Positions 13,412 to 31,679 of a DNA stretch of 64,000 nucleotides are shown here, one piece after another (positions within the stretch are counted from its first letter, which is position 1; each line of letters opens with the position of its first letter). Position numbers and translations under genes: made by a program. Source of the DNA: Escherichia coli (GTDB lineage: Bacteria > Pseudomonadota > Gammaproteobacteria > Enterobacterales > Enterobacteriaceae); the NCBI RefSeq assembly GCF_003018235.1, contig NZ_CP027437.1; one strand, 5' to 3'. The notes beneath the pieces were generated by a model that saw only the letters and a program-made list of their open reading frames with translations, searched no databases and was not told the DNA's origin.

Positions 13412-13491
13412 TACCAATTAAAAATTATCAACCGGGCATTGTGCTCATTCAGTAAAACAACTTAATTATTCATTTTAGAATGGAGAACTTA

Positions 13492-14553
13492 ATGGATACT
13501 TTAAAATATGAGAAATTCTCTGATTTTGATCACAATGACCCATTTTTTGACTCTTTAAAAAAAGATTATAAAGAGTTTCCTCTTTGGTTAGAAAAAAAAG
13601 CCAGAGAAGGAGAATCAGCTTATGTGCTCTATGATGACAAGCATAAAATCGAAGGTTTTATGTATCTAAAAGAAAATGATGATGCAAATGACATTAATCC
13701 AGCGCTCCCACCAGGACGTCATCTAAAGATAGGAACATTCAAATTTGAATCTAAAGGCACCCTTCGCGGACAACGATTTCTAAAAAAAGCGTTTGACCAT
13801 GCATTTTCATCAAAATCTGATGATATTTATGTTACTGTTTTCGACAAACACGTCCATCTAATAAAACTTTTCCAAACGTACGGATTTTACATTCATGGTG
13901 AAAAAGAAACACATAACGGGAAAGAGTTTGTATATGCGAGGTCTTTGCATGAGCCTTATGGTGATATTTTATTAGATTACCCTCGAATAATGACATCAAG
14001 GGCCAACAAATATTTACTGGCGATTTATCCCGAATATCACACTAGACTATTCCCTGATTCAAAACTTGTAAATGAATCACCAGATATTGTCAAAGATATA
14101 TCCCATGCTAACAGCATTCATAAAATTTACATATGTGGAATGCGTTCTGTGATGGGAATGAAAAGAGGAGATATCATTGTCATCTATAGAACCGGAGACA
14201 AAAAAGGGCCAGCTCGCTATCGTTCTGTAGCCAGTACATTATGTGTAGTTGAGAGCGTAAAAAATATTTCTGAATTTTTAAGCGAAGATAGTTTTGTAGA
14301 CTATTGTATTCGTTTTAGCGTATTTTCTGAAGATGAACTCAGAAAAATCTATAAAGAACGTCGATACCCTTTCATTATAAGATTCACATACAATCTGTCT
14401 TTGCCAAAGAGACCCAATCGTGCTATTTTAATAGATCATGTGGGGCTAAATGGTTCGCGTGCATTCCGATGGAGTCACTTTAAACTCACAAATGAGCAGT
14501 TCTTAAAGATCATCGAGTTAGGCAAGATAAATGAAAGTTTTATTATCCATTAA
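13492..14553 (+). CDS. hypothetical protein, first gene of rexAB-position operon
   Basis: 353 aa from ATG with GGAG 6 nt upstream (track ORF starts 13480); AT-rich; no family recognised; C-terminal half has PUA-like-looking motifs (GDIIVIY). Confidence 0.4.
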   Translation: MDTLKYEKFSDFDHNDPFFDSLKKDYKEFPLWLEKKAREGESAYVLYDDKHKIEGFMYLKENDDANDINPALPPGRHLKIGTFKFESKGTLRGQRFLKKAFDHAFSSKSDDIYVTVFDKHVHLIKLFQTYGFYIHGEKETHNGKEFVYARSLHEPYGDILLDYPRIMTSRANKYLLAIYPEYHTRLFPDSKLVNESPDIVKDISHANSIHKIYICGMRSVMGMKRGDIIVIYRTGDKKGPARYRSVASTLCVVESVKNISEFLSEDSFVDYCIRFSVFSEDELRKIYKERRYPFIIRFTYNLSLPKRPNRAILIDHVGLNGSRAFRWSHFKLTNEQFLKIIELGKINESFIIH

Positions 14554-14908
14554 GCCTGAGTTTGCAGAAAAAATATTGAACGGAACAAAGCGGTTCGAGT
14601 TTCGTAAAGGTATATTCAAAAATCCGCAAATTAGCACCGTTGTTATTTATGCCACGATGCCATTAGGTAAAGTTGTTGGTCAATTCCGTATTGAATCAAT
14701 ACTAAGTGACGAACCGGAATCTCTTTGGAAAAAGACGGAAAAACACGCAGGTATTTCTAAGCAATTTTATGACTCATATTATTCAGGTAGAGAAAAGGCC
14801 TACGCAATAAAAATTGGTGAAGTGGAAAGATATAAAGAACCAATTCCTATCTCTGCTCTAGGTAGTAATATTAAGCCACCACAATCATATCTTTACCTAC
14901 CTGCGTAA
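14531..14908 (+). CDS. ASCH/PUA-like domain protein
   Basis: 125 aa; MKVLLSIKPEFAEKILNGTKRFEFRK N-terminus resembles ASCH-domain consensus; overlaps upstream gene by 23 nt (translational coupling). Confidence 0.5.
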   Translation: MKVLLSIKPEFAEKILNGTKRFEFRKGIFKNPQISTVVIYATMPLGKVVGQFRIESILSDEPESLWKKTEKHAGISKQFYDSYYSGREKAYAIKIGEVERYKEPIPISALGSNIKPPQSYLYLPA

Positions 14909-15670: not shown

Positions 15671-15967
15671 ATGAACGCTTATTACATTCAGGATCGTCTT
15701 GAGGCTCAGAGCTGGGCGCGTCACTACCAGCAGATCGCCCGTGAAGAGAAAGAGGCAGAACTGGCAGACGACATGGAAAAAGGCCTGCCCCAGCACCTGT
15801 TTGAATCGCTATGCATCGATCATTTGCAACGCCACGGGGCCAGCAAAAAAGCCATTACCCGTGCGTTTGATGACGATGTTGAGTTTCAGGAGCGCATGGC
15901 AGAACACATCCAGTACATGGTTGAAACCATTGCTCACCACCAGGTTGATATTGATTCAGAGGTATAA
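15671..15967 (+). CDS. gam: Gam (RecBCD inhibitor), short form
   Basis: 98-aa product near-identical to recalled lambda GamS ([21 protein letters not shown]...). Confidence 0.85.
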
Positions 15968-15972
15968 AACGG

Positions 15973-16758
15973 ATGAGTACAGCACTCGCAACGCTGGCAG
16001 GGAAGCTGGCTGAACGTGTCGGCATGGATTCTGTCGACCCACAGGAACTGATCACCACTCTTCGCCAGACGGCATTTAAAGGTGATGCCAGCGATGCGCA
16101 GTTCATCGCATTACTGATCGTTGCCAACCAGTACGGCCTTAATCCATGGACGAAAGAAATTTACGCCTTTCCTGATAAGCAGAATGGCATCGTTCCGGTG
16201 GTGGGCGTTGATGGCTGGTCCCGCATCATCAATGAAAACCAGCAGTTTGATGGCATGGACTTTGAGCAGGACAACGAATCCTGTACATGCCGGATTTACC
16301 GCAAGGACCGCAATCATCCGATCTGCGTTACCGAGTGGATGGATGAATGCCGCCGCGAACCATTCAAAACCCGCGAAGGCAGAGAAATTACGGGGCCGTG
16401 GCAGTCGCATCCCAAACGGATGTTACGGCATAAAGCCATGATTCAGTGTGCCCGTCTGGCCTTCGGATTTGCTGGTATCTATGACAAGGATGAAGCCGAG
16501 CGCATTGTCGAAAATACTGCATACACTGCAGAACGTCAGCCGGAACGCGACATCACTCCGGTTAACGATGAAACCATGCAGGAGATTAACACTCTGCTGA
16601 TCGCCCTGGATAAAACATGGGATGACGACTTATTGCCGCTCTGTTCCCAGATATTTCGCCGCGACATTCGTGCATCGTCAGAACTGACACAGGCCGAAGC
16701 AGTGAAAGCTCTTGGATTCCTGAAACAGAAAGCCACTGAGCAGAAGGTGGCAGCATGA
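15973..16758 (+). CDS. bet: Bet (Red-beta single-strand annealing protein)
   Basis: 261-aa product essentially identical to recalled lambda Bet. Confidence 0.95.
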
Positions 16759-17435
16759 CACCGTACATTATCCTGCAGCGTACCGGGATCGACGTGAGAG
16801 CTGTCGAACAGGGGGATGATGCATGGCACAAATTACGGCTCGGCGTCATCACCGCTTCAGAAGTTCACAACGTGATAGCAAAGCCCCGCTCAGGAAAGAA
16901 GTGGCCTGACATGAAAATGTCCTACTTCCACACCCTGCTGGCTGAGGTTTGCACCGGTGTGGCTCCGGAAGTTAATGCTAAGGCGCTGGCCTGGGGAAAA
17001 CAGTACGAGAACGACGCCAGAACCCTGTTTGAATTCACTTCCGGCGTGAATGTTACTGAATCCCCGATCATCTATCGCGACGAAAGTATGCGCACCGCCT
17101 GCTCTCCAGATGGTTTATGCAGTGACGGCAACGGCCTTGAACTGAAATGCCCGTTTACCTCCCGGGATTTCATGAAATTCCGGCTCGGTGGTTTTGAGGC
17201 AATAAAATCGGCTTACATGGCCCAGGTGCAGTACAGCATGTGGGTGACGCGAAAAGATGCCTGGTACTTTGCCAACTATGACCCGCGCATGAAGCGTGAA
17301 GGCCTGCATTATGTCGTGATTGAGCGGGATGAAAAGTACATAGCGAGTTTTGACGAGATGGTGCCGGAGTTCATCGAAAAAATGGACGAGGCACTGGCTG
17401 AAATTGGTTTTGTATTTGGGGAGCAATGGCGATGA
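16755..17435 (+). CDS. exo: Exo (Red-alpha 5'-3' exonuclease)
   Basis: 226-aa product near-identical to recalled lambda Exo. Confidence 0.95.
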
Positions 17436-17614
17436 CGCATCCTCACGATAATATCCGGGTAGGCGCGATCGCTTTCGTCTACTCCGTTACAAAGCGAGGC
17501 TGGGTATTTCCCGGCCTTTCTGTTATCAGAAATCCACTGAAAGCACAGCGGCTGGCTGAGAAGATAAATAATAAACGGGAGGCGGTATGCACAAAGCATC
17601 TCCTGTTGAGTTAA
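17426..17614 (+). CDS. lambda orf60a-like small protein
   Basis: 62-aa ORF directly after exo, position and size as in lambda. Confidence 0.35.
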
Positions 17615-17778
17615 GAACGAGTATTGAGATGGCACATAGCCTTGCTCAAATTGGAGTCAGGTTTGTGCCAATACCAGTAGAAACAGACGAAGAATTTCAT
17701 ACGTTAGCCACATCCCTTTCACAAAAGCTGGAAATGATGGTGGCGAAAGCAGAAGCAGATGAGAGAGACCAGGTATGA
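17587..17778 (+). CDS. lambda orf63-like protein
   Basis: 63-aa product [23 protein letters not shown]... matches recalled lambda Orf63. Confidence 0.5.
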   Translation: MHKASPVELRTSIEMAHSLAQIGVRFVPIPVETDEEFHTLATSLSQKLEMMVAKAEADERDQV

Positions 17779-17858
17779 CAACCACTGAATGCATTTTTCT
17801 GGCAGCGGGCTTCATATTCTGTGTGCTTATGCTTGCCGACATGGGGCTTGTTCAATGA
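17775..17858 (+). CDS. 27-aa hydrophobic micro-ORF (MTTTECIFLAAGFIFCVLMLADMGLVQ)
   Basis: ATGA-coupled to orf63 stop and to the following ORF start; single TM-like segment. Confidence 0.3.
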   Translation: MTTTECIFLAAGFIFCVLMLADMGLVQ

Positions 17859-18070
17859 CACCTCAGCAAGAAAACGCCCTTCGCAGCATTGCCCGTCAGG
17901 CTAATTCTGAAATCAAAAAAGCCAGACAGCATTTTCCGGATAAAAACGTCGATGACATTTGCCGTAGCGTACTAAAGAAGCACCGCGAAACGGTAACGCT
18001 GATGGGATTCACACCGACTCATTTAAGCCTGGCGATCGGCATGTTGAACGGCGTCTTTAAGGAACGGTGA
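17855..18070 (+). CDS. lambda orf61-like protein
   Basis: 71-aa product from ATG coupled to upstream micro-ORF (track ORF starts 17789). Confidence 0.35.
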   Translation: MTPQQENALRSIARQANSEIKKARQHFPDKNVDDICRSVLKKHRETVTLMGFTPTHLSLAIGMLNGVFKER

Positions 18071-18168
18071 ACATGAAAAGCAAAATCATCAGGGAGCTAC
18101 AGGCTCCTTTTTTATTATTCGCATTTACCCTCAAGCGTATTAACCAACAATTCAGGGATTAATGAAAG

Positions 18169-18387
18169 ATGGCAGACATCATTGATTCAGCATCAGAAAT
18201 CGAAGAATTACAGCGCAATACAGCAATAAAAATGCGTCGTCTGAACTACCAGACTGTATCCGCAACTCATTGTTGTGAGTGTGGCGATCCGATAGATGAG
18301 CGAAGACGCCTGGCTGTTCAGGGTTGTCGGACTTGTGCTAGTTGCCAGGAGGAGATCGAACTTAAGAACAAACAATGGGGACTGTGA
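18169..18387 (+). CDS. TraR/DksA-family C4 zinc-finger protein (lambda Orf73-like)
   Basis: 72 aa with CCECGDPIDERRRLAVQGCRTCASCQ (C4 finger typical of TraR/DksA family). Confidence 0.7.
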   Translation: MADIIDSASEIEELQRNTAIKMRRLNYQTVSATHCCECGDPIDERRRLAVQGCRTCASCQEEIELKNKQWGL

Positions 18388-30459: not shown

Positions 30460-30954
30460 ATGGTTACTTTCCACACCAATCACGGCGATATTGTCATCAA
30501 AACTTTTGACGATAAAGCACCTGAAACAGTTAAAAACTTCCTGGACTACTGCCGCGAAGGTTTTTACAACAACACCATTTTCCACCGTGTTATCAACGGC
30601 TTTATGATTCAGGGCGGCGGTTTTGAACCGGGCATGAAGCAAAAAGCCACCAAAGAACCGATCAAAAACGAAGCCAACAACGGTCTGAAAAATACCCGTG
30701 GTACGCTGGCAATGGCCCGTACTCAGGCACCGCACTCTGCAACTGCACAGTTCTTCATCAACGTGGTTGATAACGACTTCCTGAACTTCTCTGGCGAAAG
30801 CCTGCAAGGTTGGGGCTACTGCGTGTTTGCTGAAGTGGTTGAAGGCATGGACGTGGTAGACAAAATCAAAGGTGTGGCAACCGGTCGTAGCGGTATGCAC
30901 CAGGACGTGCCAAAAGAAGACGTTATCATTGAAAGCGTGACCGTTAGCGAGTAA
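30460..30954 (+). CDS. ppiB: peptidyl-prolyl cis-trans isomerase B (cyclophilin)
   Basis: 164 aa cyclophilin, matches recalled PpiB. Confidence 0.95.
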
Positions 30955-30956
30955 TC

Positions 30957-31679
30957 GTGGCGACACTCTTTATTGCAGATCTTCATCTCTGCGCGGAAGA
31001 ACCGGCGATCACCGCCGGTTTTCTGCGTTTTTTAGCGGGGGAAGCCCGCAAGGCCGACGCGCTGTATATTCTTGGCGATCTGTTTGAAGCATGGATTGGC
31101 GACGACGATCCCAACCCACTCCATCGCCAGATGGCGGCAGCGATCAAAGCGGTGTCCGATTCCGGCGTTCCCTGTTATTTCATTCATGGCAACCGTGATT
31201 TTCTGCTCGGCAAACGCTTTGCCCGTGAAAGCGGCATGACGTTATTGCCGGAAGAAAAGGTGCTCGAACTGTATGGTCGTCGGGTGTTGATTATGCATGG
31301 CGACACGCTGTGCACCGATGACGCGGGTTATCAGGCTTTTCGCGCCAAAGTCCACAAGCCGTGGCTGCAGACGCTATTCCTCGCCCTGCCGTTGTTTGTG
31401 CGCAAACGCATTGCCGCGCGAATGCGAGCGAACAGCAAAGAAGCCAACAGCAGTAAATCGCTGGCGATCATGGACGTTAACCAAAACGCGGTGGTCAGTG
31501 CGATGGAAAAACATCAGGTGCAATGGCTGATTCACGGGCATACCCATCGCCCGGCAGTACATGAACTTATCGCCAATCAGCAACCTGCTTTCCGCGTCGT
31601 GCTGGGTGCCTGGCATACGGAAGGTTCAATGGTGAAAGTCACGGCGGATGACGTTGAGCTAATTCATTTCCCGTTTTAA
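30957..31679 (+). CDS. lpxH: UDP-2,3-diacylglucosamine hydrolase LpxH
   Basis: 240 aa calcineurin-like phosphoesterase ([11 protein letters not shown]...), directly after ppiB. Confidence 0.9.

What the first reader, a model, noticed from the sequence alone, without database searches (positions are those of the whole stretch)
17775..17858. ATGA-coupled 27-codon hydrophobic micro-ORF between orf63 and orf61
A 27-aa single-helix peptide is coupled at both ends by overlapping ATGA stop-start junctions, suggesting it is translated as part of the early-left operon. Small membrane peptides in this region of lambdoid phages include host-killing and exclusion factors.
Basis: seen in the sequence. Interest (0 to 1): 0.2.

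Follow-up and report, generated by a model that had tools for sequence, protein, structure and literature searches.

The report
Hidden 27-codon membrane-peptide gene in lambdoid phages
Between two early genes of a lambda-like prophage sits a 27-codon gene for a very greasy mini-protein that evolves like a real gene; it is intact in phage lambda itself, where the old 'orf61' annotation reads the same DNA in the wrong frame and hides it.

Summary
ORF 17775-17858 (+) has 27 codons (MTTTECIFLAAGFIFCVLMLADMGLVQ). Its ATG overlaps the TGA of orf63, and its TGA overlaps the ATG of a 71-codon gene.

It looks like a real coding gene rather than a chance ORF:
- In 145 haplotypes from 365 loci, 130 of about 134 that carry this DNA keep the ORF.
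- piN/piS is 0.07 in its frame, against 0.09 for the neighbouring 71-aa gene and 2.57 for the rival 93-aa frame.
- Variants shared by 3 or more haplotypes are 9 synonymous to 2 non-synonymous (p=2.4e-4).
- The identical peptide sits ATGA-coupled behind a different upstream gene, a Dam-like methylase, with a strong GGGAGG ribosome-binding site.
- Its hydrophobic core ranks first among 257 small ORFs in the window.

It is intact in lambda. There, annotated 'orf61' is a chimera: the micro-ORF DNA read out of frame, then 22 codons of the 71-aa gene, then a frameshifted tail. The published lambda 'orf61' frameshift allele is a 1-bp deletion in micro-ORF codon 18.

No curated family contains the peptide, and RefSeq does not annotate it. 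The module was found only in Escherichia. Translation, membrane location and function are inferred, not shown.

Best reading: an early pL-operon membrane micropeptide that also relays ribosomes to the next gene. It is a new member of a known kind, of moderate interest.

The parts
17775..17858 (+). Micro-ORF: 27 codons plus TGA, peptide MTTTECIFLAAGFIFCVLMLADMGLVQ. Hydrophobic core is C6-A21; acidic E5 and D22; no basic residue.
   Evidence: piN/piS 0.07. S16:N16 against an expected synonymous fraction of 0.27, p=0.0044; 9S:2N for variants in 3 or more haplotypes. Hydrophobicity rank 1/257.
17775..17778 (+). First ATGA junction: micro-ORF ATG overlaps the orf63 TGA stop.
   Evidence: Kept in all but one of the listed upstream-context variants; the exception is ATAA, which loses the start. 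The same ATGA follows the methylase stop in L054.
17855..17858 (+). Second ATGA junction: micro-ORF TGA overlaps the ATG of the 71-aa gene. A common variant is GTGA, which is CAA>CAG (silent) in the micro-ORF and gives a GTG start for the 71-aa gene.
   Evidence: (17855 A>G in 21 of 89 haplotypes).
17587..17778 (+). orf63 (DUF1382 family), the upstream partner in this window.
   Evidence: PGAP: DUF1382 family protein.
17855..18070 (+). 71-aa gene. This is the intact form of what lambda annotates as the middle of orf61 and what 933W/Phi24B annotate as the last 71 residues of a 93-aa Orf61.
   Evidence: PGAP calls exactly this ORF; phrog_303. piN/piS 0.09.
17789..17854 (+). 22-codon N-terminal extension of the alternative 93-aa reading (MHFSGSGLHILCAYACRHGACS). 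It overlaps the micro-ORF in another frame and is judged not to be the selected frame.
   Evidence: piN/piS 2.57; 0S:11N for variants in 3 or more haplotypes. No SD. The TGA just upstream (17786-17788) is polymorphic.
17844..17846 (+). Weak SD-like GGG(G) for the 71-aa gene, lying inside micro-ORF codons 23-24.
   Evidence: Annotated as an RBS in phage 434 (L002 1045-1047, which maps to window 17844-17846). Duplex energy only -4.7 kcal/mol.
17826..17826 (+). Base deleted in the published lambda 'orf61' frameshift allele (pGAWorf61_mut). It is the first base of micro-ORF codon 18 (CTT, Leu).
   Evidence: PMC4195576 Table 1. The primer maps to 17810-17842.
18091..18117 (+). Terminator-like hairpin plus T-run after the 71-aa gene (t2 of Bloch et al. 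2014). It marks the likely end of the tightly packed exo-to-71-aa gene string.
   Evidence: PMC4195576 Table 4.

Best explanation
The micro-ORF is a genuine small gene of the N-antiterminated leftward early (pL) operon. It encodes a 27-residue peptide with one hydrophobic helix, which most likely inserts into the inner membrane.

Initiation. In the orf63 context the peptide has only a weak SD, so ribosomes finishing orf63 at TGA 17776-17778 are proposed to restart on the overlapping ATG (termination-reinitiation). In the methylase context it has its own strong GGGAGG site.

Termination. Its own stop at TGA 17856-17858 sits on the ATG of the 71-aa gene, whose SD is weak. The micro-ORF would therefore also hand ribosomes on to that gene.

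Shown here: the ORF and both junctions; frame-specific purifying selection as strong as in the neighbouring gene; retention of the peptide and the coupling behind two unrelated upstream genes; extreme hydrophobicity.

Inferred: translation itself, membrane insertion, the relay role, and any effect on host or phage. My guess at the effect is a small-xxx-small (G12xxxC16) helix that binds a host or phage membrane protein and contributes to the lysis/lysogeny-timing phenotypes so far credited to 'orf61'.
For: (1) Searches show the ORF and both ATGA overlaps.

(2): 365 loci were anchored only on the 71-aa gene, giving 145 haplotypes. 128 have an intact 27-codon ORF and 2 have a TAA one codon early. 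Only 3 are damaged point variants (ATG>ATA, a 1-nt deletion, a stop/start T>G).

(3): S=16, N=16 against an expected synonymous fraction of 0.27 (p=0.0044). None of the other five frames is significant; variants in 3 or more haplotypes are 9S:2N (p=2.4e-4); piN/piS is 0.07 for the micro-ORF and 0.09 for the 71-aa gene.

(4): in 9 loci orf63 is replaced by a 185-aa Dam-like methylase. Homology resumes exactly at the micro-ORF ATG, the ATGA overlap with the methylase stop is present, and GGGAGG lies 4 nt upstream (-10.3 kcal/mol).

(5): the most hydrophobic 16-residue stretch of 257 small ORFs in the window.

(6): same strand as gam, bet, exo, orf60a and orf63. The bet/exo and exo/orf60a junctions are also 4-nt overlaps, so this junction type is used repeatedly in the operon.

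(7) Literature. mRNA across this spot is as abundant as N mRNA after lambda infection; the qPCR primer maps to 17836-17854 (PMC4195576). A 1-bp deletion at micro-ORF codon 18 delayed phage development after induction (PMC4195576). In lambda the downstream 71-aa gene is already frameshifted, while the micro-ORF is intact.
Against: - No direct evidence of translation or of the peptide was available. The lambda ribosome-profiling paper could not be read.
- The peptide has no basic residue, which is unusual for a membrane-anchored small protein, and its uninterrupted core is only 16 residues.
- All sequences are 95% or more identical and confined to Escherichia, so the selection test rests on 32 variant alleles.
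- Singletons are near-neutral (5S:12N).
- One antisense frame shares the wobble positions and shows an echo (piN/piS 0.12).
- The gene is dispensable for the 71-aa gene. In L166-type phages it is absent and the 71-aa gene has its own start region. In Escherichia sp. E1V33 a 14-nt deletion fuses its ATG to the 93-aa frame.
- The published frameshift allele also changes lambda's annotated orf61 frame, so it does not separate the two readings.
Confidence: 0.65

Rival explanations
1. Relay-only upstream ORF. The micro-ORF is translated only to carry ribosomes from orf63 to the weak-SD start of the 71-aa gene, and the peptide itself has no function.
For: ATGA overlaps at both ends. Weak SD for both the micro-ORF (-5.3) and the 71-aa gene (-4.7). 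Where the micro-ORF is absent (L166), the 71-aa gene has a different start region with its own GAGG.
Against: A relay needs only an open frame, yet amino-acid changes are selected against: piN/piS 0.07 and 9S:2N for shared variants. The identical peptide is kept in the methylase context, where it has its own strong SD. Extreme hydrophobicity is not needed for a relay.
Confidence: 0.12
2. The real product is the 93-aa Orf61, as annotated in 933W/Phi24B, or lambda's 61-aa orf61. The DNA encodes its N-terminal extension in another frame, and the micro-ORF is an accidental overlapping ORF.
For: 933W L0070 and phrog_303 use the 93-aa reading. A protein cluster of 1695 members was called this way. 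In Escherichia sp. E1V33 a 14-nt deletion places a well-positioned ATG with an SD in this frame.
Against: In this frame piN/piS is 2.57 and shared variants are 0S:11N. The stop just upstream of its ATG is polymorphic (TGA, GGA, AGA, CGA), so the N-terminus varies. There is no SD before ATG 17789. PGAP and the phage 434 annotation start the gene at 17855. The published models disagree on residues 1-23 (PMC8614690). The E1V33 junction is absent from 5426 complete E. coli genomes.
Confidence: 0.07
3. Non-coding spacer. The 77 nt between orf63 and the 71-aa gene merely carries the latter's ribosome-binding site and is open by chance.
For: A 27-codon open frame is not rare, ATGA...ATGA ORFs occur 20 times in the window, and RefSeq leaves it unannotated.
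Against: Substitutions concentrate at third codon positions of one frame: 13 of 27 variable sites, and all the commonest ones. There are no indels in 128 haplotypes, while the adjacent gene and the downstream spacer do have indels. The RNA fold is unremarkable (z=+0.84) and there is no Rfam hit, so no RNA-level constraint explains the pattern.
Confidence: 0.04
4. An antisense gene (61-aa ORF 17842..17657 on the minus strand) is the selected frame, and the sense micro-ORF shows only its echo.
For: Its wobble positions coincide with those of the micro-ORF, giving piN/piS 0.12 and 7S:4N for shared variants.
Against: The signal is weaker than in the sense frame (S11:N21, p=0.12). Its ATG is lost in 3 haplotypes (17840 C>T). 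Two thirds of it lies antisense to orf63 and is replaced by unrelated sequence in the methylase context. No promoter-like site was found on that strand nearby.
Confidence: 0.03

Closest known systems
Annotated orf61 of lambda (J02459 30839..31024; phrog_26061) and the 93-aa Orf61 of 933W/Phi24B (L0070, vb_24B_7c; phrog_303)
   Same: They occupy the same DNA. All published 'orf61' deletions, the frameshift allele and the qPCR amplicon include the micro-ORF.
   Different: The reading frame differs. Lambda orf61 is MRETRYDNHGMHFSGSGLHILCAYACRHGTCS (micro-ORF DNA out of frame), then MTPQQENALRSIARQANSEIKK (the 71-aa gene), then SQTAVSG (the tail after a +1 A in the A-run at 17915-20). Selection acts on the micro-ORF frame, not on this one.
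Small single-helix inner-membrane proteins of enterobacteria (for example AcrZ, MgtS, KdpF, YohP; from general knowledge, not tested here)
   Same: Fewer than 50 residues, one hydrophobic helix, overlooked by annotation pipelines, and typically acting by binding larger membrane proteins.
   Different: There is no sequence similarity to any family. There are no basic flanking residues. It is phage-borne and embedded in a translationally coupled gene string.
Type I toxin peptides (Ibs, ShoB, DinQ, TisB, Hok; from general knowledge)
   Same: Size of 19-50 aa and strong hydrophobicity; several are prophage-associated.
   Different: No antisense RNA gene, promoter or special RNA fold is evident. 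It is an internal cistron of a long operon rather than a stand-alone locus. Toxicity is untested.
Translationally coupled overlapping cistrons (ATGA/TGATG junctions), for example bet/exo and exo/orf60a in this same operon
   Same: 4-nt stop-start overlaps on both sides.
   Different: Here the coupled cistron is only 27 codons and is itself under amino-acid-level selection.

Membership tests
lambda orf61 / Orf61 (phrog_26061, phrog_303) | Translated in the reading frame of the annotated orf61/93-aa ORF | tested here: not met
   The micro-ORF is in a different frame. The peptide does not hit either PHROG. The annotated frame shows piN/piS 2.57 over this stretch.
Any curated protein family (Pfam-A, NCBIfam, PHROGs, PDB chains) | Significant profile or sequence match | tested here: not met
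   Pfam has 0 hits. The best NCBIfam hit is E=0.034 and below cut-off. The best PHROG hit is E=0.68. PDB has 0 hits. tblastn finds only the same module in phages and plasmids.
Small single-pass membrane proteins | Hydrophobic stretch long enough to span or anchor in a membrane | tested here: inconclusive
   The 16-residue core CIFLAAGFIFCVLMLA has a KD mean of 2.81, and a 21-residue window has 2.42 with the summed Hessa scale about -0.1. It ranks 1/257. The core is short and is interrupted by D22.
Small single-pass membrane proteins | Basic residues flanking the helix (positive-inside rule) | tested here: not met
   The sequence has no K, R or H. Its only charges are E5 and D22.
Small single-pass membrane proteins | Membrane localisation of the product | not testable with these tools
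   Needs fractionation or PhoA/GFP fusions.
Type I toxin-antitoxin loci | Cis- or trans-encoded antisense RNA with its own promoter, and a structured toxin mRNA | tested here: not met
   There is no minus-strand promoter-like site within or next to the ORF. The fold z-score is +0.84. There is no Rfam match.
Type I toxin-antitoxin loci | Toxicity on expression | not testable with these tools
   Requires an expression experiment.
Translationally coupled cistrons | Stop codon of the upstream cistron overlapping or abutting the start codon of the next | tested here: met
   ATGA at 17775-17778 and 17855-17858. It is kept in the methylase context and in nearly all haplotypes.
Translationally coupled cistrons | Downstream translation depends on upstream translation | not testable with these tools
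   Only weak SDs (-5.3 and -4.7 kcal/mol) hint at this dependence.
Protein-coding gene (generic) | Excess of synonymous over non-synonymous change in one frame only | tested here: met
   The micro-ORF frame is the best of six and comparable with the adjacent accepted gene.

The most novel reading that the evidence does not exclude
The 27-residue peptide, not 'Orf61', is the active product behind the lambda 'orf61' phenotypes (delayed development after induction, shifted lysis/lysogeny decision). Three points lead here. In lambda the annotated Orf61 is a frameshifted chimera with no predicted fold. The 71-aa gene is broken there. The published frameshift allele and the deletions all destroy the intact micro-ORF. 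Lambda would then carry a previously unrecognised early gene for a membrane micropeptide that tunes the developmental decision.
Probability: 0.3. Interest if true: 0.55.

Novelty: new member of a known kind. Interest (0 to 1): 0.4.

Why it matters
Lambda and the Shiga-toxin phages are model and clinical systems, and their exo-xis region is being dissected gene by gene.

If the micro-ORF is real, three things follow:
1. The reference annotation of lambda orf61 and the 93-aa Orf61 used for structure modelling are wrong at their 5' ends.
2. Every published orf61 deletion or frameshift is a double lesion, so the assigned 'pro-lytic' role needs re-testing with separable alleles.
3. A peptide present in most complete E. 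coli genomes is missing from RefSeq. The surrounding 801-nt module was found in 3630 of 5426 genomes.

It is also a clear example of how a lab-strain frameshift plus a long-ORF bias can hide a conserved micro-gene.

Tried and rejected
- RNA element: the fold of 17745-17885 is no better than shuffles (z=+0.84) and there is no Rfam hit. Rejected.
- Distant homologues of the peptide: the query is too short for the large protein searches. tblastn against phages and plasmids found only the same 92%-or-more identical module.
- Divergent orf63 homologues (PA2, Salmonella phage) have a different gene order and no micro-ORF, so they gave no deep comparison.
- 'Divergent' relatives of the 71-aa protein were mostly frameshifted or mosaic copies.
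- A scan of one genome per species found the module only in Escherichia, plus mis-binned MAG contigs, so cross-genus conservation cannot be tested.
- The lambda ribosome-profiling paper and the Casjens-Hendrix review are not held.
- A search for the peptide string in the literature gave no paper.
- An mBio paper with many 'Orf61' mentions concerns an unrelated Vibrio phage protein.
- The neighbouring 29/31-aa ORF (18067/18073-18162) was tested the same way and shows no coding signature.
- In one search, two of the three minus frames tested were the same frame; this was corrected.

Full report
**1. The observation**

The + strand of the window here corresponds to lambda's leftward (pL) strand. 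The genes in order are gam (15671-15967), bet (15973-16758), exo (16755-17435), an orf60a homologue (17426/17432-17614), orf63 (17587-17778), the micro-ORF (17775-17858) and a 71-codon ORF (17855-18070). Then come a terminator-like hairpin (18091-18109 plus a T-run), a TraR/Orf73-like gene (18169-18387), and further on an excisionase and a P22-type integrase. A near-identical E. coli prophage has cIII-kil-gam-bet-exo-DUF1317-DUF1382-[unannotated gap]-hypothetical(71 aa)-TraR in the same order.

The micro-ORF is as described: 27 codons, MTTTECIFLAAGFIFCVLMLADMGLVQ. One ATGA is shared with the orf63 stop and a second with the start of the 71-aa ORF. The bet/exo and exo/orf60a junctions are also 4-nt overlaps, so this junction type is used repeatedly in the operon.

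**2. How it relates to 'orf61'**

The 801-nt neighbourhood is 95-99.9% identical in 181 phage records and in 3630 of 5426 complete E. coli genomes. Lambda itself (J02459) differs from the window in two ways that created its annotated orf61 (30839..31024):
- T>G at window 17786 removes a TGA in the second + frame.
- An extra A in the A-run at 17915-17920 frameshifts the 71-aa ORF.

Lambda's orf61 therefore translates as MRETRYDNHGMHFSGSGLHILCAYACRHGTCS + MTPQQENALRSIARQANSEIKK + SQTAVSG. That is the micro-ORF DNA read out of frame, then 22 residues of the 71-aa gene, then a frameshifted tail. The micro-ORF itself is intact and identical in lambda, while the 71-aa gene is broken.

933W annotates a 93-aa ORF from ATG 17789 (L0070). 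The published Phi24B Orf61 models use that 93-aa form and note that residues 1-23 are modelled inconsistently, and that lambda Orf61 looks truncated and unfolded (PMC8614690). PGAP and the CPT annotation of phage 434 start the gene at 17855 and leave the 77-nt gap unannotated.

**3. Is the micro-ORF more than chance?**

The bare pattern is not rare: the window has 20 ATGA...ATGA ORFs of 15-50 codons. I therefore collected 388 loci from IMG/VR, metagenomes, species-representative genomes and phage records. I anchored them only on the 71-aa gene and read whatever lay upstream.

365 loci gave 145 haplotypes:
- 128 carry an intact 27-codon ORF.
- 2 end one codon early (TAATG).
- 3 are damaged point variants: ATG>ATA, a 1-nt deletion, and a T>G that kills both the stop and the next start.
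- About 9 are a mosaic type in which a 250-aa gene replaces orf63, the micro-ORF and the first 7 codons of the 71-aa gene (L166).
- 1 is a 14-nt deletion variant (L293).
- 1 has a junction inside the ORF (L193).
- 1 has an IS insertion in the 71-aa gene.

The frame-specific substitution test on 128 alignable haplotypes counts each variant allele once. The micro-ORF frame gives S=16, N=16 against an expected synonymous fraction of 0.27 (p=0.0044). The other five frames give p from 0.12 to 0.92. Variants present in 3 or more haplotypes split 9S:2N (p=2.4e-4). The same split is 0S:11N in the 93-aa frame and 16S:5N in the accepted 71-aa gene.

| Frame or gene | Nei-Gojobori piN/piS |
|---|---|
| Micro-ORF | 0.07 |
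| 71-aa gene | 0.09 |
| 93-aa frame extension | 2.57 |
| Third + frame | 2.12 |
| Antisense frame sharing wobble positions (expected echo) | 0.12 |

No indel occurs in the ORF among these haplotypes, whereas the 71-aa gene and the downstream spacer do have indels. Applied to the neighbouring 29/31-aa ORF (18067/18073-18162), the same test shows no coding signal, so the method does not simply favour any open frame.

**4. Mosaic contexts**

In 9 loci orf63 is replaced by a 185-aa Dam-like methyltransferase. Homology to the window resumes exactly at the micro-ORF ATG, which overlaps the methylase TGA (again ATGA) and follows GGGAGG by 4 nt (-10.3 kcal/mol). In the orf63 context the SD is weak (-5.3). 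The 71-aa gene's SD is also weak (-4.7). The ATG of the 93-aa reading has none.

The other mosaic breakpoint lies after codon 7 of the 71-aa gene. So the micro-ORF and the overlapping start of the 71-aa gene travel as one roughly 100-nt unit.

In Escherichia sp. E1V33 a 355-aa DGQHR-domain gene lies upstream and the same SD and ATG are present. There a 14-nt deletion puts the ATG in the 93-aa frame. This junction is absent from 5426 complete E. coli genomes. It shows that the micro-ORF is not indispensable and is the main point in favour of the 93-aa rival.

**5. Properties of the peptide**

GRAVY is 1.62. The core CIFLAAGFIFCVLMLA has a Kyte-Doolittle mean of 2.81, the highest of 257 ATG-ORFs of 20-40 aa in the window. 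It has two Cys, a G12xxxC16 small-xxx-small spacing, acidic E5 and D22, and no basic residue.

Most non-synonymous variants in the core are conservative (F8L, A10V, I14V, F15L, A21V). The radical ones (G12D, I14K, I7T) are singletons.

No Pfam, NCBIfam, PHROG or PDB relative exists. The exact sequence does exist in public protein collections as 'hypothetical protein' (UniRef A0A0A2SGE8_ECOLX; seen on 981 contigs). No paper containing the sequence was found.

**6. Expression and genetics from the literature**

The exo-xis genes are transcribed from pL. After lambda infection, orf60a, orf63 and 'orf61' mRNA are as abundant as N mRNA (PMC4195576). The 'orf61' qPCR primer maps to 17836-17854, inside the micro-ORF.

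The lambda 'orf61' frameshift allele of that study deletes the C at window 17826, the first base of micro-ORF codon 18. With that allele the exo-xis plasmid delayed phage development after mitomycin C or H2O2 induction.

The later delta-orf61 phages replace the annotated ORF with an 87-nt scar (PMC6213356), which removes the micro-ORF in lambda. They show altered lysis/lysogeny and induction, more strongly in Phi24B than in lambda.

These lesions hit both readings, so they do not discriminate between them. They do show that the locus has a phenotype in lambda, where the only intact product on this DNA is the micro-ORF.

Ribosome profiling is reported to confirm expression of the annotated exo-xis ORFs and to add a 7-aa and a 31-aa ORF (PMC8614690). 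I could not read the primary paper. Footprints on 'orf61' would be equally explained by the micro-ORF; this last point is my inference.

**7. Mechanism**

Most likely (about 0.65): an early membrane micropeptide gene. It would be translated by termination-reinitiation after orf63, or from its own SD after the methylase. Its termination on the next ATG would relay ribosomes to the 71-aa gene.

Rivals: relay-only uORF (0.12), N-terminal extension of a 93-aa Orf61 (0.07), chance spacer (0.04), antisense gene (0.03).

The coding-selection step is shown. Translation, membrane insertion, relay and biological role are inferred.

**8. Novelty and score**

This is a new, unannotated member of a known kind: small hydrophobic phage or prophage peptides, and coupled micro-cistrons. 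It belongs to no known family. Its interest is moderate. It revises the gene map of lambda's exo-xis region and complicates published orf61 genetics. It is confined to a highly similar Escherichia module, and its function remains open.

Noticed in passing
window 17759-17944 equivalent; L001 960-1145: Lambda's reference orf61 is a chimeric ORF. It was created by a T>G change at window 17786 and a +1 A in the A-run at 17915-17920. Most wild lambdoid haplotypes lack the +1 A (3 of 116 have it).
   Followed up: yes
window 18067/18073-18162: A 29/31-aa ORF (MKSKIIRELQAPFLLFAFTLKRINQQFRD) spans the terminator-like hairpin. It is annotated in some phage records and may be the 31-aa 'orf2313' from lambda ribosome profiling. 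It shows no synonymous excess (omega-like 0.77).
   Followed up: partly
window 17496-17518 and 18091-18109: Two terminator-like hairpins with T-runs on the operon strand, one inside orf60a and one after the 71-aa gene. They match t1 and t2 predicted by Bloch et al. 2014. From memory, t1 may be lambda tL3; this was not verified.
   Followed up: partly
L054 867-1424 (and 8 similar loci): A 185-aa Dam-like N6-adenine methyltransferase replaces orf63 in a mosaic variant. The recombination joint falls exactly at the micro-ORF ATG. The sequence GGGAGGC(N)G(N)ATG recurs before orf63, before the micro-ORF in this context, and in L293. It may be a shared boundary sequence for module exchange.
   Followed up: partly
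L293 371-1438 and 1435-1716 (Escherichia sp. E1V33): A 355-aa DGQHR-domain (DndB-like) gene sits in the exo-xis position. A 14-nt deletion fuses the micro-ORF start to the 93-aa frame.
   Followed up: partly
L166 1241-1993: A 250-aa gene with no Pfam hit replaces orf63, the micro-ORF and the first 7 codons of the 71-aa gene. That variant protein, P0025, has 344 member sequences.
   Followed up: no
L158 1797-2566 (also L206); L295 689-1386: IS insertions in this module. One is a 768-bp insertion with a 9-bp duplication inside the 71-aa gene (IS1-like by size). The other is an annotated IS1 splitting orf63.
   Followed up: no
window 17855-18070: RefSeq often names the 71-aa protein 'cell division protein ZapA', but the Pfam ZapA match is sub-threshold (E=0.038, 14.7 bits against a cut-off of 23.8). 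The name looks unreliable.
   Followed up: partly
L290, L292; H40, H198: Near-identical copies of this lambda module appear in records labelled Segatella copri MAG, Candidatus Nanosynbacter MAG, Campylobacter phage CJLB-4 and a Paenibacillus sonchi 'plasmid' of 48.5 kb. These are probably mis-binning or lambda contamination.
   Followed up: no
window 13480-14908: Two co-directional ORFs (357 aa and 125 aa) lie upstream of gam in the early-left region. They are not lambda genes and were not examined.
   Followed up: no
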